The translations under genes were made by a program, and so were the position numbers. This document shows, one piece after another, positions 14,850 through 31,835 of a stretch of 32,000 nucleotides of DNA (the stretch's first letter is position 1; each line of letters starts with the position of its first letter). The DNA comes from Nostoc sp. PCC 7120 = FACHB-418. Lineage in GTDB: Bacteria > Cyanobacteriota > Cyanobacteriia > Cyanobacteriales > Nostocaceae. The notes beneath the pieces were generated by a model. The model did not search any database, was not told the origin of the DNA, and saw only the letters and a program-made list of their open reading frames with translations. The stretch is taken from positions 2,010,001-2,042,000 of the forward strand of contig NC_003272.1 of assembly GCF_000009705.1 (NCBI RefSeq), read 5' to 3'.

Positions 14850-14923
14850 CGGGATGTAGCGCAGCTTGGTAGCGCACTTCGTTCGGGACGAAGGGGCCGC
14901 TGGTTCGAATCCAGTCATCCCGA
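14850..14923 (+). tRNA. tRNA-Pro (anticodon CGG)
   Basis: Hand-folded cloverleaf of 74 nt: acceptor CGGGATG/CATCCCG, D stem GCGC/GCGC, anticodon stem CTTCG/CGAAG with loop TTCGGGA, T stem GCTGG/CCAGT with loop TTCGAAT, discriminator A. CCA is not encoded. Confidence 0.85.
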
Positions 14924-19591: not shown

Positions 19592-22500
19592 TTATGCGTT
19601 TCCTCCAGAGAAAACATGATCTGCAAGCCCCAAACCGTTGTTGTAATGCTCCAGGTTACTATTAATGGTGGTACCAGCATCTATCCCATAGGAAACATTG
19701 GTGTTGGATTTATAGGCATTTGGTAAACTCGATGCGCTGGAAATACCATAACTCCACCAAGTATCATTAAACCCTGGGCTAGTGACACTGCTACCAGTCA
19801 TTTGATGAATGGCTCCATCACCTTTCTTATCACCATTTTCATCTGGAGTTAAAGCTTGCAACCAATTGATACCTTCTTTGATATAGTATCGAGCATCCTT
19901 ATCAGTTGCATTAGCGGTGTCAATGGGGTTCCCCGCGACATAATTTAACCAACTAGCCACTAAAGAGCGACCGAGATCATAACGCTTATCTGCATTGGGA
20001 TGTGCGGAGGAATTAACAATCTGGCGTGCTTGATTGAGAGTATAGAAGAGGGTGTCTTCTCCTGCATCAGTTATACCGTTGCGGTTGAAGTCACCGATGA
20101 GTAACCCCACATGATACTGTCCAGTCACGGGATCAAGTACTTTTCCCGATTGGGCAGAGTTGGTATAAGGAGCGAACAGAAGGTCGCTAGTCAGTGTTTT
20201 TTGTGTTGGCTCGTTGCCTTGATTACCATCCCAGAACTTTTGCCACTCTGTATTTGCCCAGAAGTCCGGGGTACGCACACCAGGAGCAGCTATGACTGTG
20301 TTGGTATCAGTAGCACTATTATTGCTGGGGTTGGTATCAGTGAAACCATTGGGAGCAGTAATCGTAGCAGTATTGACCAGAGAAACGGGAGTTGCTTTGA
20401 GAACATCCAGATAGCGAATCTTGAAATTATCTTCAGGACTGGTATCTGTATCTAAAGCAGCGATGACAATGGTGTTACCAACATAATTACCTGCATTCAC
20501 ATCAGCCCAGCGATCGCTACTACTATTAGTAACGTTAGCTTCGTAGAACCCAAAACTGTTGAGAGTTGAGTCACTTAAATTCGTGAGAGGATTGTTAAAG
20601 TTACCAATCCAGACAGAGATATCACTATCCTTGAGGACATATTGCAGATAAGCTTTATCCAACACCACTGCTTCTGAAAATTGGAATAAGACGTAGTTAT
20701 CCCTTCCCCCAACGTTATCAACCACATGAGTGTTGTTACCGCCATTTCCTTCGCTACTGTCGGTAACACCTAAGCCACCAGTATAGCTACCCAGATAAGC
20801 CGCACTCCAAGCACCATTTGTGCCATCAACACGGCTAAAGGCTCTAGCTGTGACCGTAATTCCGTTTTGGGTGAATGTGCGTGTATTGCCATCTGTCCCA
20901 TCCAACGGACTATTGCCATCAAAGTCAAATCTGGTCGAACTACCTGTGGATGCTGCATTACTAACTACCGTTCCTGTGACTGTGTAGGTAATGCTGCTAC
21001 CCCCTGTCAGGGTGACGTGATCATTGATGTTGCCTGTACCACTGGCTTGGTTGTCTGTTGCACCTCCACTGGCCACGCTTGTCCAAGTGACGTTGGTCAA
21101 GTTGCTGGGGATGATATCACTCACCAGCGCATTGGTAGCAGTAATCAGACCATTGTTTCGCGCCACGATGGTATAGGTTATCTGCTGTCCTGGGGTGACA
21201 TTTGTTAAACCATCTGTTTTAGTGATTGATAAGTCACCAGATGGAGCAACGATAGTGTTGGTATCAGTAGCACTGTTATTGTTGGGGTTGGTATCAGTGA
21301 AACCATTGGGAGCAGTAATCGTAGCAGTATTGACCAAAGAAGCGGGAATGGCTTTGAGAACATCCAGATAGCGAAGCTTGAAATTATCTTCAGGACTGGT
21401 ATCTGTATCTAAAGCAGCGATGACAATGGTGTTACCAACATAATTACCTGCATTCACATCAGCCCAGCGATCGCTACTACTAGTAGTAACGTTAGCTTCG
21501 TAGAACCCAAAACTGTTGAGAGTTGAGTCACTTAAATTCGTGAGAGGATTGTTAAAGTTACCAATCCAGACAGAGATATCACTATCCTTGAGGACATATT
21601 GCAGATAAGCTTTATCCAACACCACTGCTTCTGAAAATTGGAATAAGACGTAGTTATCCCTTCCCCCAACGTTATCAACCACATGAGTGTTGTTACCGCC
21701 ATTTCCTTCGCTACTGTCGGTAACACCTAAGCCACCAGTATAGCTACCCAGATAAGCCGCACTCCAAGCACCATTTGTGCCATCAACACGGCTAAAGGCT
21801 CTAGCTGTGACCGTAATTCCGTTTTGGGTGAATGTGCGTGTATTGCCATCTGTCCCATCCAACGGACTATTGCCATCAAAGTCAAATCTGGTCGAACTAC
21901 CTGTGGATGCTGCATTACTAACTACCGTTCCTGTGACTGTGTAGGTAATGCTGCTACCCCCTGTCAGGGTGACGTGATCATTGATGTTGCCTGTACCACT
22001 GGCTTGGTTGTCTGTTGCACCTCCACTGGCCACGCTTGTCCAAGTGACGTTGGTCAAGTTGCTGGGGATGATATCACTCACCAGCGCATTGGTAGCAGTA
22101 ATCAGACCATTGTTTCGCGCCACGATGGTATAGGTTATCTGCTGTCCTGGGGTGACATTTGTTAAACCATCTGTTTTAGTGATTGATAAGTCACCAGCAT
22201 TTTGGTATATTCCCGCATCCAAAGTGAGATTATTTTCACCAGAGACAAGGGTGACAACCTGAGTTTTGCCAGTGCTGGGATTAGCATCAGAATCTACAAC
22301 ATCATTAGCGCCGACATTAGCTTGAGTAAACTGAAATCCTGCTGGTAGACCAGAGAATCCGACTTGATATTGTTGACCAGGTGTGAGTTCGGCAAAATTG
22401 TAATTGCCACCGGCATTAGTAGTTGTGGTAACGGTAGTATCGCCAATACCATTGATAATGCCATCTGCACCGCCACCAGTGAGGGTAACGCTTACACCTG

Positions 22501-25500
22501 CTACACCAACTTCTCCCGCATCTTGAATGCCGTTGTTGTTAACATCGTTGAATACGAAGTCTCCTAATGAAGCGGTTTTGTAGAACCCAGCATCAACTGT
22601 GGTGTCATTCTCTCCTGGCGATAGGTTAACTACATCGGAGATTAATCCATCACTATCAATGGCATCATTCCCACCTACATTCTGCGGACTAACACCGTTG
22701 AAGCCATTGGGTTGTACAAACTGGACTTTGTAATCTCCTGGTCGCAGGTTGGTAAAGGAATACAATCCATTACCATCTGTTGTGGTGGTGGCTATGACAT
22801 TTCCGGATGTATCCAAGAGCTTGACTGTGGCATCGCCAATACCTGTTTCTCCGGCATCTTGAATTCCATTTGCATTCTTGTCTTCAAAGACAAAATTACC
22901 CAAACTAGCTAGGGGTACTAAACCTGCATCCAGTGTCCCGTTGAATTCTCCTGATGCCAGGGTGAGTGTTTGGGTGATACCTGTGCTGACGTTGGCATCA
23001 CTATCTAATGCATCATTGTTTCCTTGGTTGGCAAGGCTGAAGTTGTAACCTGCTGGGGCGGTGAATTTAACTTGGTATTCTCCAGGGGTTAAGCCACTGA
23101 ATCCATAGCCACCATTTGCATCTGTTGTGGTTGTGGCTATGACATCCCCATTCGCTGGGTTGATGAGTTCGACTGTGACTCCCCCTACACCAATTTCTCC
23201 CGCATCTTGAATGCCATTGTTGTTAACATCGTTGAATACGAAGTCTCCTAATGAAGCGGTTTGATAGAAGCCGGCATCAACAGTGGTGTCATTTTCTCCA
23301 GGAGACAAGTTAACTACATCGGAGATTAATCCATCACTATCAATGGCATCATTCCCACCTACATTCTTGGGACTGATACCATCAAAGCCACTGGGCTGAA
23401 TAAACTGGACTTTGTAGTCTCCTGGTTGCAGGTTGGTAAAGGAATACAATCCATTACCATCTGTTGTGGTGGTGGCTATGACATTTCCGGATGTATCCAA
23501 GAGCTTGACTGTGGCATCGCCAATACCTGTTTCTCCGGCATCTTGAATTCCATTTGCATTCTTGTCTTCAAAGACAAAATTACCCAAACTAGCTAGGGGT
23601 ACTAAACCTGCATCCAGTGTCCCGTTGAATTCTCCTGATGCCAGGGTGAGTGTTTGGGTTAAACCTGTGCTGGGGTTGGCATCACTGTCTAATTCGTCGT
23701 TGCTGCCTTGGTTGGCGGTGGAGAAGATGTAGCCTGTGGGGGCTGTGAATCTGACTTGGTAATTACCTGGGGTTAAACCACTGAATTGATAGCCACCACT
23801 GCTATTTGTTGTGGTTGTGGCGATGACATCCCCATTTGTTGGGTTGATTAATTCGACTGTGACTTGACCAACTCCAACTTCTCCTGCATCTTGAATGCCG
23901 TTGTTGTTGGCATCTTTGAATACGAAGTCTCCTAATGAAGCGGTTTTGTAGAACCCAGCATCAACTGTGGTGTCATTCTCTCCTGGCGATAGGTTAACGA
24001 TATCAGAAACTAACCCATCACTATCAATGGCATCATTCCCACCTACATTCTGCGGACTAACACCGTTGAAGCCATTGGGTTGTACAAATTGGACTTTGTA
24101 ATCTCCTGGTCGCAGGTTGGTGAATGAGTACAGTCCATTATCATCTGTTGTGGCTGTGGCGATGATATTCTCGGCTGCATCTAAGAGGTTAACTGTGGCA
24201 TTGCCAATACCTGTTTCCCCTGCATCTTGAATGCCGTTGGCATTTTTGTCTTCAAAGACGAAATTACCCAAACTAGCTAGGGGTACTAAACCTGCATCCA
24301 GTGTCCCGTTGAATTCTCCTGATGTCAGGGTGAGTGTTTGGGTTAAACCTGTGCTGGGGTTGGCATCACTGTCTAATTCGTCGTTGCTGCCTTGGTTGGC
24401 GGTGGAGAAGATGTAGCCTGTGGGGGCTGTGAATCTGACTTGGTAATTACCTGGGGTTAAACCACTGAATTGATAGCCACCACTGCTATTTGTTGTGGTT
24501 GTGGCGATGACATCCCCATTTGTTGGGTTGATTAATTCGACTGTGACTTGACCAACTCCAACTTCTCCTGCATCTTGAATGCCGTTGTTGTTGGCATCTT
24601 TGAATACGAAGTCTCCTAAACTTGCCTTCCTATATATACCTGCATCAATAGTGCGATTGAACTCATTTGGATTCAGCTCGATGATTTGTGCCTGACCGGT
24701 GAGTGGGTCAGCATCAGAATCGGTTGTATCATTACCTTGATTGGACTGTGTAAAGACAAAACCTGTTGGTAGATTGCTAAAGGTAACTTTGTACTCTACA
24801 CCAGGCAAAAGAAGTGGAAATAGATAAGAACCATTGGCATCTGTGGTTGTGGTGACATTAGTGTCATCTGCTGTACCGATGACACCATCTTTGCCACCAC
24901 CAGTGAGGGTAACAGTAACACCTTCTACACCCGCTTCATTGGCATCCTGAACGCCATTAGCATTGAGGTCTTCCCAGACAAAATCACCCAAAGCAGCTGT
25001 CTTGAGAATATTAATGGTACTTTGTGCAATATTAGTTCCTGTTTGGTTAACAGGAACAACAATAATTCCGATATCTTGAGGTATGCCATCTTGGCTGATA
25101 CCAGGTACAAAGCCTCCACCATTTTGAAAGGCTGCTTCAACAATCTGATTGGCTCGGTTTTGGTTGTATGCGCCTACTGTACCTAATATGTTGGAAGGAA
25201 CTGTGTTCTCAAGCAGAGTCCAGATGGCTACCTGTATATCACCGGAGGTATAGGCACCGAGACCCCCTGAAGATTGTTTGCCTACGAATTTCTGGTTAAT
25301 TAACCAGTTAATCTCATCTAGGTTTTCGGGTTTATCAATTATCCCTGTTGGCAGAGGGTCATTATAGCTAGAATAAACTTGCGCTTGGTAGGATTGCCCT
25401 GGAACAATAGTTTGATTCGCATCAATGCAATAGGTGTCATACAGTCCATTGAGGAAATTACCGTTGGAGATTGTAAGGTCTACGTAGCTTGGTCCATCAC

Positions 25501-25591
25501 CACCAGAACCAGGATAAGCAACTACGATGTTTACGTTGTTGTCCGGTAATGTTAACTTTAAAGCTTGCAGCAGGTCATCAGTTAAAGACAT
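19592..25591 (-). CDS. Giant repetitive adhesin-like protein: TED-like head, 8 SdrD-B/CnaB-like repeats, 2 x (DUF11-like domain + unassigned domain), unassigned C-terminal domain
   Basis: ORF trimmed to the ATG at 25591, with GGAG 8 nt upstream (the ORF-track start at 25636 is TTG); 1999 aa.
- Eight repeats begin LGDFV(W/F)xDxNxNGxQDxxE and end DSDAxPxTGxT...DAG.
- Two copies of LSITKTDGLTNVTPGQQITYTIVARNNG... are DUF11-type.
- The N-terminus MSLTDDLLQALKLTLPDNN has no signal-peptide character.
- No LPXTG, PEP-CTERM or RTX nonapeptides were seen. Confidence 0.8.
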   Translation of the reverse strand: MSLTDDLLQALKLTLPDNNVNIVVAYPGSGGDGPSYVDLTISNGNFLNGLYDTYCIDANQTIVPGQSYQAQVYSSYNDPLPTGIIDKPENLDEINWLINQKFVGKQSSGGLGAYTSGDIQVAIWTLLENTVPSNILGTVGAYNQNRANQIVEAAFQNGGGFVPGISQDGIPQDIGIIVVPVNQTGTNIAQSTINILKTAALGDFVWEDLNANGVQDANEAGVEGVTVTLTGGGKDGVIGTADDTNVTTTTDANGSYLFPLLLPGVEYKVTFSNLPTGFVFTQSNQGNDTTDSDADPLTGQAQIIELNPNEFNRTIDAGIYRKASLGDFVFKDANNNGIQDAGEVGVGQVTVELINPTNGDVIATTTTNSSGGYQFSGLTPGNYQVRFTAPTGYIFSTANQGSNDELDSDANPSTGLTQTLTLTSGEFNGTLDAGLVPLASLGNFVFEDKNANGIQDAGETGIGNATVNLLDAAENIIATATTDDNGLYSFTNLRPGDYKVQFVQPNGFNGVSPQNVGGNDAIDSDGLVSDIVNLSPGENDTTVDAGFYKTASLGDFVFKDANNNGIQDAGEVGVGQVTVELINPTNGDVIATTTTNSSGGYQFSGLTPGNYQVRFTAPTGYIFSTANQGSNDELDSDANPSTGLTQTLTLASGEFNGTLDAGLVPLASLGNFVFEDKNANGIQDAGETGIGDATVKLLDTSGNVIATTTTDGNGLYSFTNLQPGDYKVQFIQPSGFDGISPKNVGGNDAIDSDGLISDVVNLSPGENDTTVDAGFYQTASLGDFVFNDVNNNGIQDAGEIGVGGVTVELINPANGDVIATTTTDANGGYGFSGLTPGEYQVKFTAPAGYNFSLANQGNNDALDSDANVSTGITQTLTLASGEFNGTLDAGLVPLASLGNFVFEDKNANGIQDAGETGIGDATVKLLDTSGNVIATTTTDGNGLYSFTNLRPGDYKVQFVQPNGFNGVSPQNVGGNDAIDSDGLISDVVNLSPGENDTTVDAGFYKTASLGDFVFNDVNNNGIQDAGEVGVAGVSVTLTGGGADGIINGIGDTTVTTTTNAGGNYNFAELTPGQQYQVGFSGLPAGFQFTQANVGANDVVDSDANPSTGKTQVVTLVSGENNLTLDAGIYQNAGDLSITKTDGLTNVTPGQQITYTIVARNNGLITATNALVSDIIPSNLTNVTWTSVASGGATDNQASGTGNINDHVTLTGGSSITYTVTGTVVSNAASTGSSTRFDFDGNSPLDGTDGNTRTFTQNGITVTARAFSRVDGTNGAWSAAYLGSYTGGLGVTDSSEGNGGNNTHVVDNVGGRDNYVLFQFSEAVVLDKAYLQYVLKDSDISVWIGNFNNPLTNLSDSTLNSFGFYEANVTTSSSDRWADVNAGNYVGNTIVIAALDTDTSPEDNFKLRYLDVLKAIPASLVNTATITAPNGFTDTNPNNNSATDTNTIVAPSGDLSITKTDGLTNVTPGQQITYTIVARNNGLITATNALVSDIIPSNLTNVTWTSVASGGATDNQASGTGNINDHVTLTGGSSITYTVTGTVVSNAASTGSSTRFDFDGNSPLDGTDGNTRTFTQNGITVTARAFSRVDGTNGAWSAAYLGSYTGGLGVTDSSEGNGGNNTHVVDNVGGRDNYVLFQFSEAVVLDKAYLQYVLKDSDISVWIGNFNNPLTNLSDSTLNSFGFYEANVTNSSSDRWADVNAGNYVGNTIVIAALDTDTSPEDNFKIRYLDVLKATPVSLVNTATITAPNGFTDTNPSNNSATDTNTVIAAPGVRTPDFWANTEWQKFWDGNQGNEPTQKTLTSDLLFAPYTNSAQSGKVLDPVTGQYHVGLLIGDFNRNGITDAGEDTLFYTLNQARQIVNSSAHPNADKRYDLGRSLVASWLNYVAGNPIDTANATDKDARYYIKEGINWLQALTPDENGDKKGDGAIHQMTGSSVTSPGFNDTWWSYGISSASSLPNAYKSNTNVSYGIDAGTTINSNLEHYNNGLGLADHVFSGGNA
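20298..22197. repeat. Near-perfect tandem duplication, period 957 bp (319 codons), inside the adhesin gene
   Basis: Copy 1 (20298..21240) matches copy 2 (21255..22197). A handful of substitutions are confined to the first ~230 nt, and I found no mismatch from about 20531..21240 against 21488..22197. The off-frame ORFs in the track are duplicated exactly at a 957-nt offset. Confidence 0.95.
22574..24625. repeat. Three tandem copies of a 684-bp (228-codon) two-domain unit (SdrD-B-like repeats 2-7)
   Basis: The marker string ...CATCTTGAAT(T/G)CC(A/G)TT... recurs at 22853, 23537 and 24221 (period 684). Long stretches are identical at the nucleotide level between copies. Confidence 0.9.
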
Positions 25592-26116
25592 CAAAAGGCT
25601 CCGCAAAATTGGATTTAGCGAACCTAAGCGAGTCAAGCAAAAATTAAAATCTATATAGGGAACAAATATCTTTAGGAGATCATCTCAGTAATTTCTAAAA
25701 TTTTGTCTCTTTAAAGAATTTTTTAATCAAAACAACATAAATCAGGAATGTCATTGACACCAAAAAATTTTGTAATCTCCACAAAAATAGTGTATTCCAA
25801 GAGCGTTGGTGAGAATTAAAAGCGCAGTAAATTTTGTCAATCAGTTAAAATACTCAAAAAATTAAATTAAGAATTGATAAATCTAACCAAGTCTGGATCA
25901 GGTTCAGACTAAATATGATATGAACAGGTCTTACTCACCCAGGTTGTCTGTTGAGACTGGGTGTAAGGCTCTTAAAAATTTATACTCCTACACCCTTGTC
26001 TAAACTCTTGATTTTTCGTTTTCATGGGTAAGTCCTAAATTATTGTTGTTTGCATCTCACTAGGGTAAGCAAAGCTATACTGCTCAAAAATGCTCTAATT
26101 TTTAGGCTATTAATAA

Positions 26117-27025
26117 TTACGAATCATCCTGATTTTTCAGGGTTAGCCGTAAATAAGTATTTTCATCGATATCTACAGATAGTTGTTCGATATTTTCCCC
26201 TAAATCTTTTTGTAGTTTCTGAGTTAATGTAACTGGAAAATCTAAACTAATACCTTGATTTTGTACTAGATTAGACAACTCAGAAAACTGTACTTTCACA
26301 ACTTTGCGTTGATAACTGGTGAGTTTGTAAGTAGAAGTTTCCGATATATTTTGAGTCTGCATAGCTTTTTTTAATTGCTCTTGTAGATACTCATATTCAG
26401 AATTTAACAATTTCCACTGTTCTTCTATTTGGGAAAAGCGTGAGTTGATAACTGTTATATCTAATGTTTCTGGATCGGGGTTGCTTTCTATTTGCAGTTC
26501 TAACAAACGGCGATGGATTTGAGCCAGGTAAATACAATCTAAATAAGCATATTCTATTTGTTCTTCGCTTAGAGGTCGTTGTCCCCAATTGCTACCTTGT
26601 TCTTGTTTATCAATATTATTAAAATTACATAATAATTTAGCTAAACTTTGCAGTTGGTAATTTTGTACTGGCAAGAGATAATAAGGAATTTTTTTGGCAA
26701 TTTCTAAAGTGCAGGTAATATTTCTGGCTTGCTTATTGCCCAGAAGTTTGACATCAAAGTTAGCATTGTGAAACACCTTTTCAATATTTGTGTTTACCAT
26801 AATTTTATCAACAAAGTCAGCTACTAAATCAGGCTGATCAAGTACATCCAAAAGGTAAACGCGATCGCCACTCATATCGTTAGGATCATCTAATACCTGA
26901 ATCAGCGATAATCGAGGATTACGACTTTTATAGTCAGCGACCTCGGTATCTATCCATAAAGTAGTAGCTTGAGTATATCCAGCAACTATGGCACGAATTT
27001 CCCTGGCATCAGTTAAGTATGGCAT
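26117..27025 (-). CDS. DEDDy-type 3'-5' exonuclease (RNase D / DNA_pol_A_exo1-like) with an unassigned C-terminal extension
   Basis: Exo motifs are LWIDTEVAD (Exo I), HNANFDVKLL (Exo II) and YAYLDCIYL (Exo III, Y-x3-D). The start is set to the ATG at 27025 (MPYLTD...), because the ORF-track start at 27055 is TTG. Confidence 0.8.
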   Translation of the reverse strand: MPYLTDAREIRAIVAGYTQATTLWIDTEVADYKSRNPRLSLIQVLDDPNDMSGDRVYLLDVLDQPDLVADFVDKIMVNTNIEKVFHNANFDVKLLGNKQARNITCTLEIAKKIPYYLLPVQNYQLQSLAKLLCNFNNIDKQEQGSNWGQRPLSEEQIEYAYLDCIYLAQIHRRLLELQIESNPDPETLDITVINSRFSQIEEQWKLLNSEYEYLQEQLKKAMQTQNISETSTYKLTSYQRKVVKVQFSELSNLVQNQGISLDFPVTLTQKLQKDLGENIEQLSVDIDENTYLRLTLKNQDDS

Positions 27026-27110
27026 TGGTGGATATGTCCTGATATTTGCACTCAACAGCTAAAAATATATTTACAATTCATTGAGAATTGCTATACAATT
27101 TTATTCTGAT

Positions 27111-27217
27111 AAGAAGGGGAGTAGCTGCTGGCAAAAGCCAGTACATCTGAATCAACATACTGGCGATGAGCCTGGTTCAGGTGACAACTAGAAAATATTT
27201 GGAAGCGAGACCTTCAC
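27111..27217 (+). promoter_or_regulatory. yybP-ykoY (Mn2+-sensing) riboswitch-like leader
   Basis: - GAAGG-GGAGUAGC at 27113..27125 matches the conserved AAAGGGGAGUAGC.
- The hairpin is CUGGC-AAAA-GCCAG (27128..27141).
- CUGAA...UUCAG is followed by GUGACAAC.
- UUUGGAAGCGAGACC-UUC at 27198..27215 matches the conserved ...UUUAGCAAGACCUUU.
- P1 pairs GAAGG (27113..27117) with CCUUC (27211..27215).
- A UPF0016 gene lies downstream; this class of gene is known to be controlled by the riboswitch. Confidence 0.7.
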
Positions 27218-27233
27218 TAAGTTCACATTTAAG

Positions 27234-27935
27234 ATGTGGCTTGGTGGGGTCTTTTGGCATTCATCAAGCTTCACATCGGTAAACATTTTTCAGGAGCTTG
27301 AGAGAGTGCTAACAGCTTTTACCGCAGGTTTATTACTAATTACAGTTTCAGAACTGGGAGATAAAACTTTCTTCATCGCCATGATCTTGGCAATGCACCA
27401 TTCCCGACGATGGGTATTTACAGGAGTGGTGGGCGCTTTAGCCGCAATGACAATACTCTCGGTATTATTTGGCAAAGCTGCATCTCTATTGCCACCAGTG
27501 TACATTTATTACGCTGAAATAACCTTATTTATTGCCTTTGGTCTGAAACTGTTGTATGACGCTAGTAAGATGTCGGCGGCGGCGGATAAAGCTGAAGTGA
27601 TGGAAGAGATGGAAGAGGCGAAAGCAGCCGTAGAAAAAGCAGATTTACAGCTACCAAAACAAAAAACGCCCTTATCAATTATATTAGAAGCCTTTGTCTT
27701 GACCTTTATGGCAGAGTGGGGCGATCGCACCCAAATAGCCACCATAGCCTTAGCCGCAGGTAATAACATTATTGGTGTCACCATAGGAGCCATTTTAGGT
27801 CATGCCATTTGTGCGGCGATCGCTGTCATTGGGGGCAAAATGATTGCCGGGAAAATTTCTGAACGTCAGCTTACCTTTGCCGGCGGATGCCTATTTTTGA
27901 TTTTTGGTATTGTCGCCGCTATTGAAGGAGTGTAA
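27234..27935 (+). CDS. GDT1/TMEM165/UPF0016-family cation (Mn2+/Ca2+) transporter, Mnx/PAM71-type
   Basis: It has two copies of the family signature E-x-G-D-[KR]-[TS] (ELGDKT, EWGDRT) in a two-fold hydrophobic repeat. The start is ambiguous: ATG at 27234, or an in-frame GTG at 27306 preceded by AGGAG (27292..27296) that would give a 209-aa product. Confidence 0.85.
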   Translation: MWLGGVFWHSSSFTSVNIFQELERVLTAFTAGLLLITVSELGDKTFFIAMILAMHHSRRWVFTGVVGALAAMTILSVLFGKAASLLPPVYIYYAEITLFIAFGLKLLYDASKMSAAADKAEVMEEMEEAKAAVEKADLQLPKQKTPLSIILEAFVLTFMAEWGDRTQIATIALAAGNNIIGVTIGAILGHAICAAIAVIGGKMIAGKISERQLTFAGGCLFLIFGIVAAIEGV

Positions 27936-28004
27936 CAATTCAACATTTAAAATTCTTATCCTACTCATCAATAACCCCCTAAAAATTGGGGGTTAGAGTT
28001 TTCT

Positions 28005-28886
28005 TTATTGCTTCGGGGTGCTTTCAGGAGTGGGAGCGGGAGGTGCAGGCGGAGCAGGTGCAGGAGATACAGTTGCGGCTTTATTAATCTCATCTTTGTA
28101 TTGAGCCGGCGCTAAAGCCAAGGCACTATCAAACAAAGGTTTAGCCTCGGTGGCTTTTCCTTGTTGCTTCAACAGCATAGCCTTTGCCAAAACTGGACGA
28201 AAATCCTTCGTATCTTTCTGAATTGCTTGGTCAAATGCCGAAATCGCTTGAGGATAACGTTTCTGAGCAGCATGAACATTACCCAGTAGCACCTGTACAG
28301 CCACTACATCCACACTCCCCGGCTGGATGGTATTGGCTTGGGCAGCATTAGTCAGAGTATCTTGCAACAAACCAACCGCAGCTTCTGGACGTTGCTGATC
28401 TAACAAAAGAACTACCATCCCTTGCAAAGCCTTTAAATCACCAGGTTTGGTATCCAAAATTGAGCGATAAGCTGTAGCCGCCCCTTCCTTGTCACCAATT
28501 TGCTGTTTGGCTTGGGCTAATAGCACTCCATACTCCGACTGATTAGGATTAAGCTTGGCTAGCTTTTCCAGAGGCTCTATCACGCTCTGGACATTACCTT
28601 GTTTTAAAGCTAAAAGTTGCAGCCGCGCTTGTAATAAACCCTTCAATGCAGTTTGATTTTCTGGTTCCCGTTGTAAAACCAATTCATATCCACGTACTTC
28701 GTCTGCCAATTTGGATTGTTGATTAGAGGCGAGCGAGTCGCCTTGGTTACTAGCACTATTCTGGTTTGAGGGTGACGTATTATCATTCAACGCCCCAATA
28801 ATGGGAACAACTGAAACACCCACAAAAGCTAGAACTGCTAGCGCCAAGATGAGTTGAACTATCCACCGATTGCGCGGTTGAGACAC
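28005..28886 (-). CDS. Membrane-anchored TPR-repeat protein with a Pro/Ala-rich C-terminus
   Basis: 293-aa ORF with a GTG start and GGAGGG upstream. It has an N-terminal TM helix (IVQLILALAVLAFVGVSVVPII), several TPR-like A/L/Y-rich 34-mers, and a C-terminal PAPAPPAPPAPTPESTP. Confidence 0.7.
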   Translation of the reverse strand: MSQPRNRWIVQLILALAVLAFVGVSVVPIIGALNDNTSPSNQNSASNQGDSLASNQQSKLADEVRGYELVLQREPENQTALKGLLQARLQLLALKQGNVQSVIEPLEKLAKLNPNQSEYGVLLAQAKQQIGDKEGAATAYRSILDTKPGDLKALQGMVVLLLDQQRPEAAVGLLQDTLTNAAQANTIQPGSVDVVAVQVLLGNVHAAQKRYPQAISAFDQAIQKDTKDFRPVLAKAMLLKQQGKATEAKPLFDSALALAPAQYKDEINKAATVSPAPAPPAPPAPTPESTPKQ

Positions 28887-29265
28887 GATTTAAATGCCCT
28901 CCATATCTATAATCACATTATTATCGACACAAATTAGAAAGTTAAAAATTTCCAAAACTTTGCGGAATACCGTCAAATACCTGTGAATTTTATAACAAAC
29001 CACAAGTTAGCACTGCTAAAGTAAGTGATGACTTTAGGAGGAGCCATCAGAATAGAAGCTGTGATATGCTTCCGAAACTAGTGTAAAGGCGCTAAATTAC
29101 AGATTTAGAGTAGAATGACGAGTCTAGCGTCTTTAAAATTATATAGAGCGTTTTCGTGTGATTTTGTGAAAAGCCAATATACTTTCATCAGCCACACAAG
29201 CGCTCTTTCTCGATGCTTTAGTAAAATCCCATAATTGGGATGTGTCTCCGCCGCAAGGAGTTTTT

Positions 29266-30261
29266 ATGACTTCCGACCTGATGCCTTCGCCTGAATCTTC
29301 CAACTCTTTTGCCTCAGATCAGCCTCAAACTAACATAGAGGCGGCCGCTAATATTCATATAGCAGCACCCCAGTCCTCTAAGCCTGAAAATTCGTCACTC
29401 AACACTAGTGAGAATGCCACAGATGAGAACTTAGCCGATCGCCAGCAACCAATTCCACCTCCCAGTGAACCAATGCAATACAGAGCCATTGGTTTAGTCC
29501 GGGGTCGTTACCGTGCCAGCGATGAACAATTTACCCAAGGTATCTTACTGACCACAGATGGCGTAGAACTCAACGCCGTCCTCCTGGGTCGGATTATGAG
29601 CCTAGTCAAAAATCATCTAGACCTAGAACAAGACCATTTGTGGGTAGTTTATCCCCGCACAAGGCAAGAAAACGACACTCTGCATATCCAAATCGTCGGA
29701 GTTTGGGAACCAGAAAATCTGGCTAAAAATTCGACAGAAGAAGATGAGCAAGATGCGCTTTCACAAGAAACCATACCCGAAGAGCCAGAAGCAGCTACAA
29801 AATCCCCAGCGCCTTCATCCAATATTCCTGATGGTGGTTTTTCCGTCCGTGGAGAAGTAGTTTATCAGTCTTTCGATGCTAAAAGCTTAGTTGTTAAAAT
29901 TAAGCAGGCTCCACGTAAACCAACTGATAAGCCCAAATATTTCAAGTTGAAACTGCGGGGTGTGTTAACCACCAAAGCGGTAGGGAAGTTTTGGGACTTC
30001 CAAGCCAAGCGAGAAGGTGACGTTCTGGTAGTACAAACGGCAGAAGCGATTGCTGACTTGCCCAAAAAACGCCGACCACCGTTTAAAGGCGGCGGCGGCG
30101 GTGGCCCCCGTGGTGGTTTCAGAAAACCATTCCCCCCCAGAAGACCAGGAGAAACGCCCCGCCCAATCAAGAAAGTCGGTGGCGAAACCTCTGCGGTTTC
30201 CAAACCCCAACCGAAAGCACCGGTTCCCAAGCCGGTGAAGAAACCCAAGCCGACGGAGTAG
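29266..30261 (+). CDS. Conserved hypothetical protein with a basic Gly/Pro/Arg-rich C-terminal tail
   Basis: ORF trimmed to the ATG at 29266, which is preceded by AAGGAG (29255..29260). It has a structured core (MQYRAIGLVRGRY...HIQIVGVWEP, and FSVRGEVVYQS...VLVVQT) and a tail KKRRPPFKGGGGGGPRGGFRKPFPPRRPGETPRPIKK. I recognise no family. Confidence 0.6.
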   Translation: MTSDLMPSPESSNSFASDQPQTNIEAAANIHIAAPQSSKPENSSLNTSENATDENLADRQQPIPPPSEPMQYRAIGLVRGRYRASDEQFTQGILLTTDGVELNAVLLGRIMSLVKNHLDLEQDHLWVVYPRTRQENDTLHIQIVGVWEPENLAKNSTEEDEQDALSQETIPEEPEAATKSPAPSSNIPDGGFSVRGEVVYQSFDAKSLVVKIKQAPRKPTDKPKYFKLKLRGVLTTKAVGKFWDFQAKREGDVLVVQTAEAIADLPKKRRPPFKGGGGGGPRGGFRKPFPPRRPGETPRPIKKVGGETSAVSKPQPKAPVPKPVKKPKPTE

Positions 30262-31541: not shown

Positions 31542-31835
31542 TTTAAATGTAGCGGATAGACATTTCAATTATGAGGCAGTATGTCTGCCAGATAACCGAT
31601 TAAATCAGTTTGGCGAGAAAAATCCAATAACCTTCATCAGAAATGTACATCAGCCAGTTATAGATTTACCAATATTAGTATTAATGGTAAGGAGTAGAGT
31701 TTGGCATTAATATTCAGCCAAATCTAAATATAGGACTCCTATTTGATTTTTGTTAGTGTAGCCTGCACTATGGGCTGACGAGTCCCAGTAAATAAGTCAA
31801 TTTACAAATCAGATTGTCAAATTACCAAACTAGCT

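What the first reader, a model, noticed from the sequence alone, without database searches (positions are those of the whole stretch)
27111..27306. Mn2+ (yybP-ykoY) riboswitch-like leader in front of a cyanobacterial Mnx/PAM71-type UPF0016 transporter
The 5' leader reproduces the conserved elements of the yybP-ykoY aptamer in the right order and with a closing P1 helix:
- GAAGG/CCUUC (P1)
- GGGGAGUAGC
- a GNRA-like capped helix CUGGC-AAAA-GCCAG
- a second helix closed by CUGAA/UUCAG next to GUGACA
- the 3' ...UUUGGAAGCGAGACC

The downstream gene carries the double ExGD(K/R)(T/S) signature of the GDT1/TMEM165 family. The cyanobacterial and chloroplast members of this family (Mnx/SynPAM71, PAM71) handle manganese for photosystem II homeostasis. 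A direct Mn-sensing RNA on this gene would link Mn sensing to thylakoid and cytoplasmic Mn partitioning.

The expression platform is unclear:
- The first ATG (27234) sits in the 3' arm of a small hairpin, CACAT-ttaag-ATGTG (27224..27238).
- A better Shine-Dalgarno (AGGAG, 27292..27296) precedes an in-frame GTG at 27306.
Basis: partly seen in the sequence, partly recalled or inferred. Interest (0 to 1): 0.65.

Follow-up and report, generated by a model that had tools for sequence, protein, structure and literature searches.

The report
Manganese riboswitch before cyanobacterial Mn exporter
The leader of this cyanobacterial manganese-transporter gene is a genuine manganese-sensing RNA switch of the well-known yybP-ykoY class; it is real and conserved, but the same site was already catalogued in a sister strain in 2013, so it is an ordinary (if under-appreciated) finding.

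Summary
Window 27113-27215 folds into the four-way junction of the yybP-ykoY Mn2+ riboswitch. It carries the family's signature strands: GGGGAGUAGC, the L3 strand ACAUACU with the Mn-sensing adenosine at 27157, and GAGACC.

The Rfam 15 model scores it at only 29 bits (gathering 45). That test is uninformative here, because the validated E. coli mntP riboswitch also fails (41.6 bits). A covariance model built only from the cyanobacterial leaders finds E. coli mntP (E = 3e-11) and alx (E = 9e-4) end to end.

The element follows a conserved promoter. It is conserved in 79 of 80 Nostocales loci (the 80th is cut off by its contig end) and in five other cyanobacterial lineages, with compensatory changes in most helices.

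The gene is a two-domain GDT1/UPF0016 transporter. Its true start is GTG 27306, not ATG 27234.

The expression platform looks like a strand relay. Mn2+-locked P1.1 frees a switch strand (27233-27253), which then pairs with the strand that otherwise masks the SD and start codon. A terminator-like U-run is not conserved outside Nostocaceae.

Prior art exists: RegPrecise (Sun et al. 2013) lists yybP-ykoY on COG2119 in Nostoc PCC 7120. Novelty and interest are therefore low.

The parts
27070..27099 (+). sigma-70-type promoter: -35 TTTACA (27070-75), 18-nt spacer, -10 TACAAT (27094-99). Predicted transcription start about 27105-27108.
   Evidence: 10 of 12 matches; cTTGACt-17-TAtAAT is conserved in essentially all 80 orthologous loci, with the -10 ending 11-13 nt before P1.1.
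27113..27215 (+). yybP-ykoY (Mn2+) aptamer, a four-way junction.
27113..27117 (+). Switch helix P1.1, 5' strand GAAGG. It pairs with 27211-27215.
   Evidence: Invariant in 78 Nostocales leaders. It changes on both sides in E. coli members aligned to the model.
27116..27125 (+). GGGGAGUAGC, the conserved L1 5' strand running into P1.2 (GCU 27124-26 pairs with AGC 27204-06).
   Evidence: Aligned to the RF00080 consensus at posterior probability '*'. Identical in E. coli mntP.
27127..27142 (+). P2 hairpin GCUGGC-AAAA-GCCAGU.
   Evidence: The loop varies from 4 to 25 nt. Stem covariation G-C to A-U (CUGGC/GCCAG to CUAGC/GCUAG) appears in five non-Nostocales lineages.
27144..27183 (+). P3.1 (27144-54/27173-83), L3 strand ACAUACU (27155-61, Mn-sensing adenosine at 27157) and P3.2 (27162-64/27170-72).
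   Evidence: P3.2 changes C-G to U-A in 6 Nostocales. 9 of 11 P3.1 pairs change on both sides in the broad set. L3 is identical to X. oryzae ACA48UACU (PMC6754395).
27185..27201 (+). P4 hairpin CAACUA-GAAAA-UAUUUG, with one C-U mismatch in this window.
   Evidence: Variable-length inserts: about 25 nt in Calothrix, about 85 nt in Brasilonema, 40-50 nt in Crinalium, Coleofasciculus and others. All 6 pairs covary.
27207..27215 (+). GAGACCUUC: the L1 3' strand (GAGA) plus the P1.1 3' strand (CCUUC). This is the strand fought over by the aptamer and the lock hairpin.
   Evidence: Matches GCGAGACC in E. coli mntP and GAGACC in X. oryzae.
27207..27253 (+). 'Lock' hairpin (no-Mn state). 27207-15 pairs with 27246-53, 27216-22 with 27239-45, and the inner hairpin is 27224-29/27233-38. 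It is followed by a short U-run at 27252-55.
   Evidence: 96.8-99.5% of cells paired. A-U changes to G-C in L052, with G-U intermediates in L026 and L079.
27233..27277 (+). Anti-sequestor hairpin (Mn state). The switch strand 27233-27251 pairs with the decoy strand 27256-27277, and UUUU 27252-55 forms the loop.
   Evidence: best fold when the aptamer is closed and the transcript ends at 27275-27292. The same switch occurs in 13 of 13 diverse leaders. 92-94% of cells paired against 32-53% when slid.
27255..27311 (+). Sequestor helix. 27255-72 pairs with 27293-27311, masking the SD AGGAG (27292-96) and the GTG start (27306-08).
   Evidence: 90-95% of cells paired.
27306..27935 (+). UPF0016/GDT1 two-domain transporter gene (209 aa from GTG 27306), an Mnx/SynPAM71-like Mn2+ exporter candidate.
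   Evidence: The start column is conserved, GTG in most and ATG in L012, L072 and L077. Homologs are 203-209 aa.
27972..27995 (+). Hairpin terminator after the gene, shared with the convergent TPR gene.

Best explanation
Window 27113-27215 is a canonical yybP-ykoY Mn2+ riboswitch aptamer. It is transcribed from a conserved promoter that ends about 13 nt upstream, and it controls a two-domain UPF0016/GDT1 (Mnx-like) Mn2+ exporter gene that starts at GTG 27306. It works as an ON switch.

Shown here:
- The fold, the signature nucleotides, covariation and family membership.
- The 3' strand of the aptamer (GAGACCUUC, 27207-15) can pair either with the 5' strand of switch helix P1.1 or with 27246-53.

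Inferred, low-Mn2+ state:
- P1.1 is open.
- 27207-28 zips up with the switch strand 27233-53 into a long lock hairpin.
- The strand 27255-72 is then free to pair with 27293-27311, which buries the SD and the start codon.
- In Nostocaceae the lock hairpin followed by UUUU may also cause some premature termination.

Inferred, high-Mn2+ state:
- L1-L3 docking locks P1.1, as established for this class (PMC6754395).
- The 3' end of the switch strand (GGGGUC) stays single-stranded.
- It nucleates pairing with the next-transcribed decoy strand 27256-77, a near-copy of 27215-28, to form an anti-sequestor hairpin.
- The SD then emerges unpaired, ribosomes load, and the exporter is made.
For: Aptamer:
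- The lowest-energy fold is the four-way junction, z = -4.2.
- RF00080 is the only real Rfam hit (E = 2.7e-6).
- Model R1, built from cyanobacterial sequences only, finds E. coli mntP at 44.7 bits (E = 3e-11) and alx at 19.7 bits (E = 9e-4), both full length. The best background hit scores 14.3 bits.
- In 32 diverse members, 97.8% of cells pair, 29 of 34 pairs change on both sides, and the covariation score is 0.253 against 0.114 for shuffles and at most 0.052 when slid.
- L3 reads ACAUACU and the L1 3' strand reads GAGACC, identical to the X. oryzae crystal construct; the invariable adenosine is at 27157.

Context:
- PF01169 matches twice.
- UPF0016 genes are typical yybP-ykoY targets (PMC7380456).
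- The conserved promoter sits at a fixed distance upstream.
- The element is present in 79 of 80 Nostocales loci and in Crinalium, Coleofasciculus, Trichocoleus, Aerosakkonema and L086 at 48-105 bits.

Platform:
- Competing folds appear.
- In 13 of 13 diverse leaders the best fold switches to the anti-sequestor when the aptamer 3' strand is blocked and the SD is not yet transcribed.
- All three helices pair in 90-99% of cells against 25-58% when slid.
- L052 carries matched changes in three strands (CUGAG / CUCGG / UUGAG), consistent with both alternative pairings.
Against: - The Rfam gathering score is not reached (29 vs 45), although the positive control mntP also fails.
- No Mn2+ binding, transcription-start or expression data exist for any cyanobacterial member.
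- Within Nostocales, P1.1 and P1.2 never vary, so they carry no covariation there.
- Platform helices show few compensatory changes, not above the shuffled controls.
- At equilibrium and full length, the SD-masking helix is still predicted in the aptamer-closed state in 11 of 13 leaders, including this window, where it is about 11 kcal/mol more stable. The ON state must therefore be kinetic or ribosome-assisted.
- Orthology to Synechocystis Mnx and the direction of transport were not tested.
Confidence: 0.88

Rival explanations
1. Same aptamer, but the main output is classical transcription antitermination. Without Mn2+, the lock hairpin 27207-27253 plus UUUU 27252-55 terminates transcription. 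With Mn2+, P1.1 prevents the hairpin base from forming and RNA polymerase reads through. The SD-masking helix would be a constitutive feature.
For: - The hairpin base overlaps the aptamer 3' strand exactly as in the L. lactis and X. oryzae antitermination mechanism (PMC6754395).
- A run of 4-6 U follows GGUC in most Nostocaceae.
- At equilibrium the SD helix forms in both states, which would leave termination as the only ligand-dependent step.
Against: - There are only 4 U, two of which pair inside the stem, and the terminator scan did not call it.
- The U-run is absent or degenerate in Halotia L013, Aulosira L063, Calothrix L075/L080, Brasilonema L077, Crinalium, Coleofasciculus and L086, while all pairing strands are kept.
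- The decoy strand and its complementarity to the switch strand are conserved, which termination alone does not need.
Confidence: 0.3
2. A yybP-ykoY-fold aptamer that responds mainly to something other than cytoplasmic Mn2+. Candidates are Ca2+ (some UPF0016 proteins move Ca2+), another soft divalent ion, or pH, as in E. coli alx.
For: - GDT1 family members are annotated as Ca2+/H+ antiporters.
- alx shows that members can integrate pH (PMC13594968 abstract).
Against: - All Mn-site nucleotides match the Mn2+-specific crystal structures, including the N7-donor adenosine.
- The leader is far closer to mntP (44.7 bits) than to alx (19.7 bits).
- Only Mn2+ transport is reported for the bacterial and cyanobacterial UPF0016 members (PMC7380456).
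Confidence: 0.05
3. A conserved structured leader that no longer switches (a relic aptamer acting as an mRNA-stability or constitutive translation element), or a chance resemblance.
For: - The score is below the Rfam gathering threshold.
- There are no experimental data.
Against: - The ligand-site strands are invariant across at least six cyanobacterial lineages while loops and P4 vary freely.
- Compensatory changes maintain every helix.
- The model hits validated members reciprocally.
- The mutually exclusive platform pairings are conserved.
Confidence: 0.03

Closest known systems
RegPrecise/Rfam yybP-ykoY site upstream of COG2119 (UPF0016) in Nostoc sp. PCC 7120 (Sun et al. 2013, PMC3766115, supplementary file 1)
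   Same: - The same RNA family.
- The same target gene family.
- A sister strain of the organism the window appears to come from (protein 100% identical to Trichormus variabilis ATCC 29413).
- The same table lists two such sites in Synechococcus JA-3-3Ab, one on ykoY in Gloeobacter, and none in Synechocystis 6803.
   Different: - It is only a table entry made when the ligand was still unknown ('?').
- It gives no structure, start codon, promoter or platform analysis, and no experiment.
- I could not fetch the PCC 7120 sequence to confirm base-by-base orthology.
E. coli mntP (yebN) Mn2+ riboswitch (validated; Dambach et al. 2015, as cited in PMC7380456)
   Same: - Four-way junction.
- GGGGAGUAGC, UCAACAUACU and GCGAGACC strands identical or nearly so.
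- Found full length by the cyanobacterial model at E = 3e-11.
- An ON switch for a Mn2+ exporter that acts on translation (established knowledge).
   Different: - The target protein family is different (MntP).
- The E. coli leader is much longer between aptamer and start codon (aptamer at L081 965-1073, start at 1189).
- The lock / anti-sequestor / sequestor strand relay with a duplicated decoy strand was not looked for there.
L. lactis yoaB and X. oryzae yybP-ykoY riboswitches (crystal structures; PMC6754395)
   Same: - L3 ACAUACU is identical to X. oryzae.
- GAGACC begins the 3' half of L1/P1.1.
- Mn2+ stabilises switch helix P1.1 against strand invasion by a downstream complementary strand. 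The same logic applies here, with 27246-53 as the invader.
   Different: - Those examples are transcription antiterminators with clear U-tracts.
- Here the U-run is short and not conserved across lineages, and the conserved output appears to be SD masking.
Synechocystis Mnx/SynPAM71 and V. cholerae MneA (UPF0016 Mn2+ exporters)
   Same: - Two-domain GDT1/UPF0016 protein of about 205 aa with two ExGD(K/R)(T/S) motifs.
- Bacterial UPF0016 genes are usually riboswitch-controlled.
   Different: - Synechocystis has no yybP-ykoY site in the RegPrecise table.
- Only ManSR is known there (PMC11649195).
- Orthology, localisation and transport direction of the window's protein were not tested.

Membership tests
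yybP-ykoY / Mn2+ riboswitch (Rfam RF00080) | Four-way junction: outer switch helix P1.1, P1.2, P2 hairpin, P3.1/P3.2 arm and P4 hairpin. | tested here: met
   - The lowest-energy fold of 27108-27220 gives exactly this, z = -4.2.
- 95% of cells pair in 78 Nostocales leaders.
- 97.8% of cells pair, with 29 of 34 covarying pairs, in the broad set.
yybP-ykoY / Mn2+ riboswitch (Rfam RF00080) | Conserved L1 strands: 5' GGGGAGUAG and 3' GAGACC. | tested here: met
   27116-27124 and 27207-27212. Invariant in all cyanobacterial leaders. Shared with E. coli mntP and X. oryzae.
yybP-ykoY / Mn2+ riboswitch (Rfam RF00080) | L3 strand with the invariable Mn2+-contacting adenosine (A41 in L. lactis, A48 in X. 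oryzae, in ACA48UACU). | tested here: met
   27155-27161 reads ACAUACU, with the adenosine at 27157. The adenosine is invariant in 78 leaders (A50 of A1).
yybP-ykoY / Mn2+ riboswitch (Rfam RF00080) | Score at or above the Rfam gathering threshold (45 bits). | tested here: inconclusive
   - The window scores 29 bits and is not reported at the gathering threshold.
- Other cyanobacterial members score 22-35 bits.
- The positive control, E. coli mntP, also fails at 41.6 bits.
- This model version lacks P1.1 and mis-models the 3' strand.
yybP-ykoY / Mn2+ riboswitch (Rfam RF00080) | Detectable homology to experimentally validated members over the full aptamer. | tested here: met
   The cyanobacteria-only model R1 finds mntP at 44.7 bits (E = 3e-11) and alx at 19.7 bits (E = 9e-4), both covering model positions 1-116. 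The best background hit is 14.3 bits in 37 kb.
yybP-ykoY / Mn2+ riboswitch (Rfam RF00080) | Located in the 5' leader of a Mn2+ efflux or homeostasis gene (MntP, TerC, UPF0016, P-type ATPase), in sense orientation. | tested here: met
   PF01169 gene 91 nt downstream on the same strand. Promoter immediately upstream. The UPF0016 association is documented.
yybP-ykoY / Mn2+ riboswitch (Rfam RF00080) | The 3' strand of the switch helix is shared with a mutually exclusive downstream structure (the expression platform). | tested here: met
   27207-15 pairs alternatively with 27246-53. This is conserved in distant lineages.
yybP-ykoY / Mn2+ riboswitch (Rfam RF00080) | Selective Mn2+ binding and Mn2+-dependent induction of the downstream gene. 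| not testable with these tools
   Requires in-line probing or ITC and reporter assays. No published data for cyanobacteria were found.
UPF0016 / GDT1 (Mnx/SynPAM71-type Mn2+ exporter) | Two copies of the GDT1 domain, each with an E-x-G-D-(K/R)-(T/S) motif, in a protein of about 200 aa with 6 transmembrane segments. | tested here: met
   PF01169 in 2 stretches at 150 bits. ELGDKT and EWGDRT are present in the translation.
UPF0016 / GDT1 (Mnx/SynPAM71-type Mn2+ exporter) | Orthology to Synechocystis Mnx (sll0615); thylakoid or plasma-membrane localisation; Mn2+ export. | not tested
The closest representatives are cyanobacterial proteins of about 205 aa and longer proteins that are probably plant or algal.

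The most novel reading that the evidence does not exclude
The conserved part of this leader may be more than the textbook aptamer. It may include a three-state strand relay: a lock hairpin, an anti-sequestor built on a duplicated 'decoy' copy of the strand next to the aptamer, and an SD/start-codon sequestor. This relay would give kinetic, translation-level ON control. It would be shared by filamentous cyanobacteria (Nostocales, Crinalium, Coleofasciculus, Trichocoleus, Aerosakkonema) and absent from Synechocystis. That would make it the first direct intracellular Mn2+ sensor described for cyanobacteria. It would control how much Mn2+ is moved out of the cytoplasm in organisms whose photosystem II depends on Mn, and it would complement the ManSR system, which senses external Mn2+.
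Probability: 0.5. Interest if true: 0.45.

Novelty: already known. Interest (0 to 1): 0.27.

Why it matters
Cyanobacteria must supply Mn to photosystem II while avoiding Mn toxicity. [quoted passage not shown]

This leader shows that many filamentous cyanobacteria put their Mnx-like exporter under a direct Mn2+-sensing RNA. That gives the field a ready-made and easily testable regulator, and a possible Mn biosensor part.

There are practical side results:
- The annotated 233-aa start (ATG 27234) lies inside the riboswitch platform and is probably wrong.
- The Rfam 15 RF00080 model, as run here, misses validated and cyanobacterial members at its gathering score.

None of this changes what is known about the riboswitch class itself.

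Tried and rejected
- **Rfam gathering-score test.** Rejected as a membership criterion after the E. coli mntP control also failed.
- **ATG 27234 as start codon.** Rejected. It is absent from most orthologs, whereas GTG 27306 alternates with ATG in the same column.
- **A simple 'P1 3' strand is the anti-SD' model.** Rejected. The SD partner is 27255-72, not the aptamer strand.
- **A pure equilibrium switch of SD accessibility.** The predicted probability that the SD is unpaired does not change between states in 11 of 13 leaders, so I fall back on a co-transcriptional model.
- **A short 6-7-bp helix between GUGGGG 27244-49 and CUUCAC 27268-73 as the anti-sequestor.** Superseded by the longer 27233-51/27256-77 hairpin found by folding.
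- **An intrinsic terminator as the conserved output.** Weakened by the loss of the U-run in distant lineages.
- **A weak second R1 hit in L063 (672-778, minus strand) and one in the window (31684-31828).** Both lack L3 and GAGACC, so I treat them as chance.
- **Literature searches for an experimentally studied cyanobacterial Mn riboswitch.** They found nothing.
- **Dambach 2015 and Brandenburg 2017.** Not held in the library.
- **Getting beyond Nostocales.** The first protein search returned only Nostocales. Other lineages needed the representative search plus a profile search.
Full report
**1. What is in the sequence**

The stretch 27108-27220 folds on its own into a four-way junction at -36 kcal/mol; shuffles give -23.2 +/- 3.1, so z = -4.2. 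Using the nomenclature of the structural papers (PMC6754395), the parts are:
- Switch helix P1.1: GAAGG 27113-17 with CCUUC 27211-15.
- L1: GGAGUA 27118-23 opposite GAGA 27207-10.
- P1.2: GCU 27124-26 with AGC 27204-06.
- P2 hairpin: 27127-42.
- P3.1: 27144-54 with 27173-83.
- L3: ACAUACU 27155-61.
- P3.2: 27162-64 with 27170-72.
- P4: 27185-90 with 27196-201, with one C-U mismatch in this window.

The downstream ORF matches PF01169 (GDT1/UPF0016) twice at 150 bits. It carries ELGDKT and EWGDRT.

**2. The Rfam test and why it does not decide**

At gathering thresholds the only Rfam hit in the 32-kb window is a tRNA. With permissive settings on 27000-27400, RF00080 matches 27115-27274 at 29 bits, against a gathering score of 45, with E = 2.7e-6. 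The 5' two-thirds aligns almost perfectly, but the 3' part is pushed into a roughly 70-position "loop".

The same happens to the experimentally validated E. coli mntP riboswitch. It scores 41.6 bits, also below the gathering score, and its alignment stops before the 3' GAGACC strand. In this release the model marks GGGGAGUAGC as external single strand, so it has no P1.1. Other cyanobacterial leaders score 22-35 bits. A score below the gathering threshold therefore cannot refute membership here.

**3. Independent membership tests**

I fetched 80 orthologous Nostocales loci. Of these, 79 carry GGGGAGTAG, (CAACATAC) and GAGACC at the same distance from the gene; the exception, L039, is cut off by its contig end.

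I built a covariance model, R1, from 75 distinct Nostocales aptamers and the four-way-junction structure. It contains no non-cyanobacterial sequence. Searched with filters off, it gave these results:
- E. coli mntP: 44.7 bits, E = 3e-11, full length. The match includes P1.1, GGGGAGUAGC, UCAACAUACU and GCGAGACC.
- E. coli alx: 19.7 bits, E = 9e-4, full length.
- Best unrelated hit in 37 kb: 14.3 bits.

[quoted passage not shown] This places the invariable Mn2+-contacting adenosine at 27157. GAGACC is the start of the 3' half of L1/P1.1 in that construct.

**4. Conservation and covariation**

Within Nostocales (78 distinct leaders, alignment A1), the full proposed structure pairs in 95.1% of cells, against 27-43% when partners are slid. 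Changes on both sides occur in:
- P3.1 (3 pairs).
- P3.2 (C-G to U-A in 6 taxa).
- P4 (2 pairs).
- The post-aptamer hairpin (2 pairs).

P1.1 and P1.2 never vary there. P4 carries lineage-specific inserts, and the P2 loop varies from 4 to 25 nt.

To reach further I used the 50%-identity representative search and a profile search, then fetched contigs. R1 finds the aptamer upstream of the ortholog in Aerosakkonema (105 bits), Coleofasciculus (98), Trichocoleus (97), Crinalium PCC 9333 (96) and L086 (48-72). It also finds it in a "Sericytochromatia" MAG contig that is nearly identical to Crinalium and is probably mis-binned.

On 32 model-aligned members, including the two E. coli RNAs:
- 97.8% of cells pair.
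- 29 of 34 pairs change on both sides.
- The covariation score is 0.253, against 0.114 for shuffles (0 of 500 reach it) and at most 0.052 when slid.

Caveat: that alignment is fitted to the model.

**5. Promoter and start codon**

A near-consensus promoter (cTTGACt, 17 nt, TAtAAT) is conserved in essentially all loci, and its -10 ends 11-13 nt before P1.1. In the window it reads TTTACA 27070-75 and TACAAT 27094-99. This predicts a transcription start at about 27105-08, so the RNA begins with the aptamer. Sequence upstream of the promoter is not conserved.

The start column 27306 is GTG in most leaders and ATG in L012, L072 and L077. ATG 27234 lies in a hairpin whose sequence differs in most orthologs (CACAC...GUGU), and homologs are 203-209 aa long. 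The 233-aa annotation (P0001, Trichormus variabilis ATCC 29413, 100% identical) is therefore probably too long.

**6. Expression platform (partly shown, partly inferred)**

Shown by folding:
- With the downstream sequence added, the lowest-energy fold opens P1.1. It pairs 27207-15 with 27246-53 on top of a constitutive-looking hairpin (27216-22/27239-45 and 27224-29/27233-38).
- A second helix, 27255-72 with 27293-27311, buries AGGAG 27292-96 and GTG 27306.
- The aptamer-closed state is only 6 kcal/mol less stable in this model, which ignores Mn-dependent tertiary docking.
- When the aptamer is held closed and the transcript is cut before the SD, the best fold changes. The switch strand 27233-51 leaves its upstream partner and pairs with 27256-77, with UUUU 27252-55 as the loop.
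- The downstream partner (CAUCAAGCUUCACAUC) is a near-copy of the upstream one (CACUAAGUUCACAU).
- The same switch is predicted in 13 of 13 diverse leaders, including Crinalium, Coleofasciculus, Trichocoleus, L086 and Aerosakkonema.

Pairing statistics for the three helices:
- Lock hairpin: 96.8-99.5% of cells paired.
- Anti-sequestor: 92-94%.
- Sequestor: 90-95%.
- Slid controls: 25-58%.

Compensatory changes are few and do not exceed the shuffles. This is expected for strands that must serve two pairings, so covariation does not prove the relay. One informative case is L052, whose matched changes in three strands (CUAAG to CUGAG, CUUGG to CUCGG, UCAAG to UUGAG) keep both alternative pairings; single-step intermediates occur in L026, L079, L013 and L075.

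Inferred:
- Mn2+ locks P1.1, as established for the class (PMC6754395).
- GGGGUC 27246-51 then stays free and nucleates the anti-sequestor as the decoy strand emerges, so the SD appears unpaired.
- Without Mn2+ the lock hairpin zips to its base and the decoy strand is left to mask the SD.
- At equilibrium and full length, the masked state is still favoured in the aptamer-closed condition in 11 of 13 leaders, including this one. The ON state would therefore have to be kinetic or ribosome-assisted.

A classical terminator role for the lock hairpin plus UUUU is possible in Nostocaceae. However, the U-run is missing or degenerate in L013, L063, L075/L080, L077, Crinalium, Coleofasciculus and L086, while the strands persist. 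The terminator scan did not call it.

**7. What is already known**

- UPF0016 genes are among the standard targets of this riboswitch. A review states that 328 of 333 screened bacterial strains with a UPF0016 gene have it under yybP-ykoY control (PMC7380456).
- Sun et al. 2013 (RegPrecise) list, in their yybP-ykoY column, COG2119 for Nostoc sp. PCC 7120, two COG2119 genes for Synechococcus JA-3-3Ab and ykoY for Gloeobacter. They list nothing for Synechocystis 6803 and the ten other cyanobacteria. The ligand was unknown at the time.
- I found no experimental work on a cyanobacterial member.
- A 2024 Synechocystis Mnx paper says that only ManSR is known in cyanobacteria.

**8. Verdict**

It is a canonical member of a well-studied class, on a typical target gene, and the orthologous site in a sister strain is already catalogued.

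This analysis adds:
- The corrected start codon.
- The conserved promoter.
- The distribution across filamentous cyanobacteria.
- A testable relay model for the expression platform.
- A caution about the current Rfam model.

Interest is low to moderate, mainly for the cyanobacterial Mn-homeostasis community.

Noticed in passing
window 27234-27305: The public annotation (233 aa; P0001, Trichormus variabilis ATCC 29413) starts the UPF0016 gene at ATG 27234, inside the riboswitch expression platform. The conserved start is GTG 27306, giving 209 aa.
   Followed up: yes
Rfam RF00080 model; L081 962-1058; window 27115-27274: The Rfam 15 'Manganese' model (177 positions) has no outer switch helix and aligns the 3' GAGACC strand into a roughly 70-position hairpin loop. 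Validated E. coli mntP scores 41.6 bits and all cyanobacterial members score 22-35 bits, all below the gathering score of 45.
   Followed up: partly
window 28005-28886 (-) and 27972-27995: A TPR-repeat gene convergent with the UPF0016 gene is syntenic in Crinalium, Coleofasciculus, Trichocoleus and Aerosakkonema. One hairpin terminator lies between the two genes.
   Followed up: partly
L088 (DATNQW010000363.1, 'Candidatus Sericytochromatia' MAG): This 4.7-kb contig is nearly identical to the Crinalium epipsammum PCC 9333 locus (L083), riboswitch included. It is probably a mis-binned cyanobacterial contig rather than evidence for the element outside oxygenic cyanobacteria.
   Followed up: partly
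window 19592-25636 (-): A 2014-aa ORF has 8 SdrD B-like repeats and 2 DUF11 domains. It also contains a long, nearly exact internal duplication of about 300 aa, visible in the translation.
   Followed up: partly
window 26117-27055 (-): A 3'-5' exonuclease-domain gene (PF01612) is transcribed divergently. Its start lies only about 15 nt from the -35 element of the riboswitch promoter, so the two genes share a very short intergenic region.
   Followed up: no
window 14850-14923 (+): tRNA-Pro (CGG), the only Rfam hit at the gathering threshold in the window.
   Followed up: yes
L085 259-378: Weak hits to miRNA-precursor models on both strands point to a long inverted repeat just upstream of the Trichocoleus riboswitch promoter region.
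   Followed up: no
window 29242-30261 (+): A 339-aa ORF, low-complexity and rich in proline, lysine and glycine at its C-terminus, has no Pfam match.
   Followed up: no
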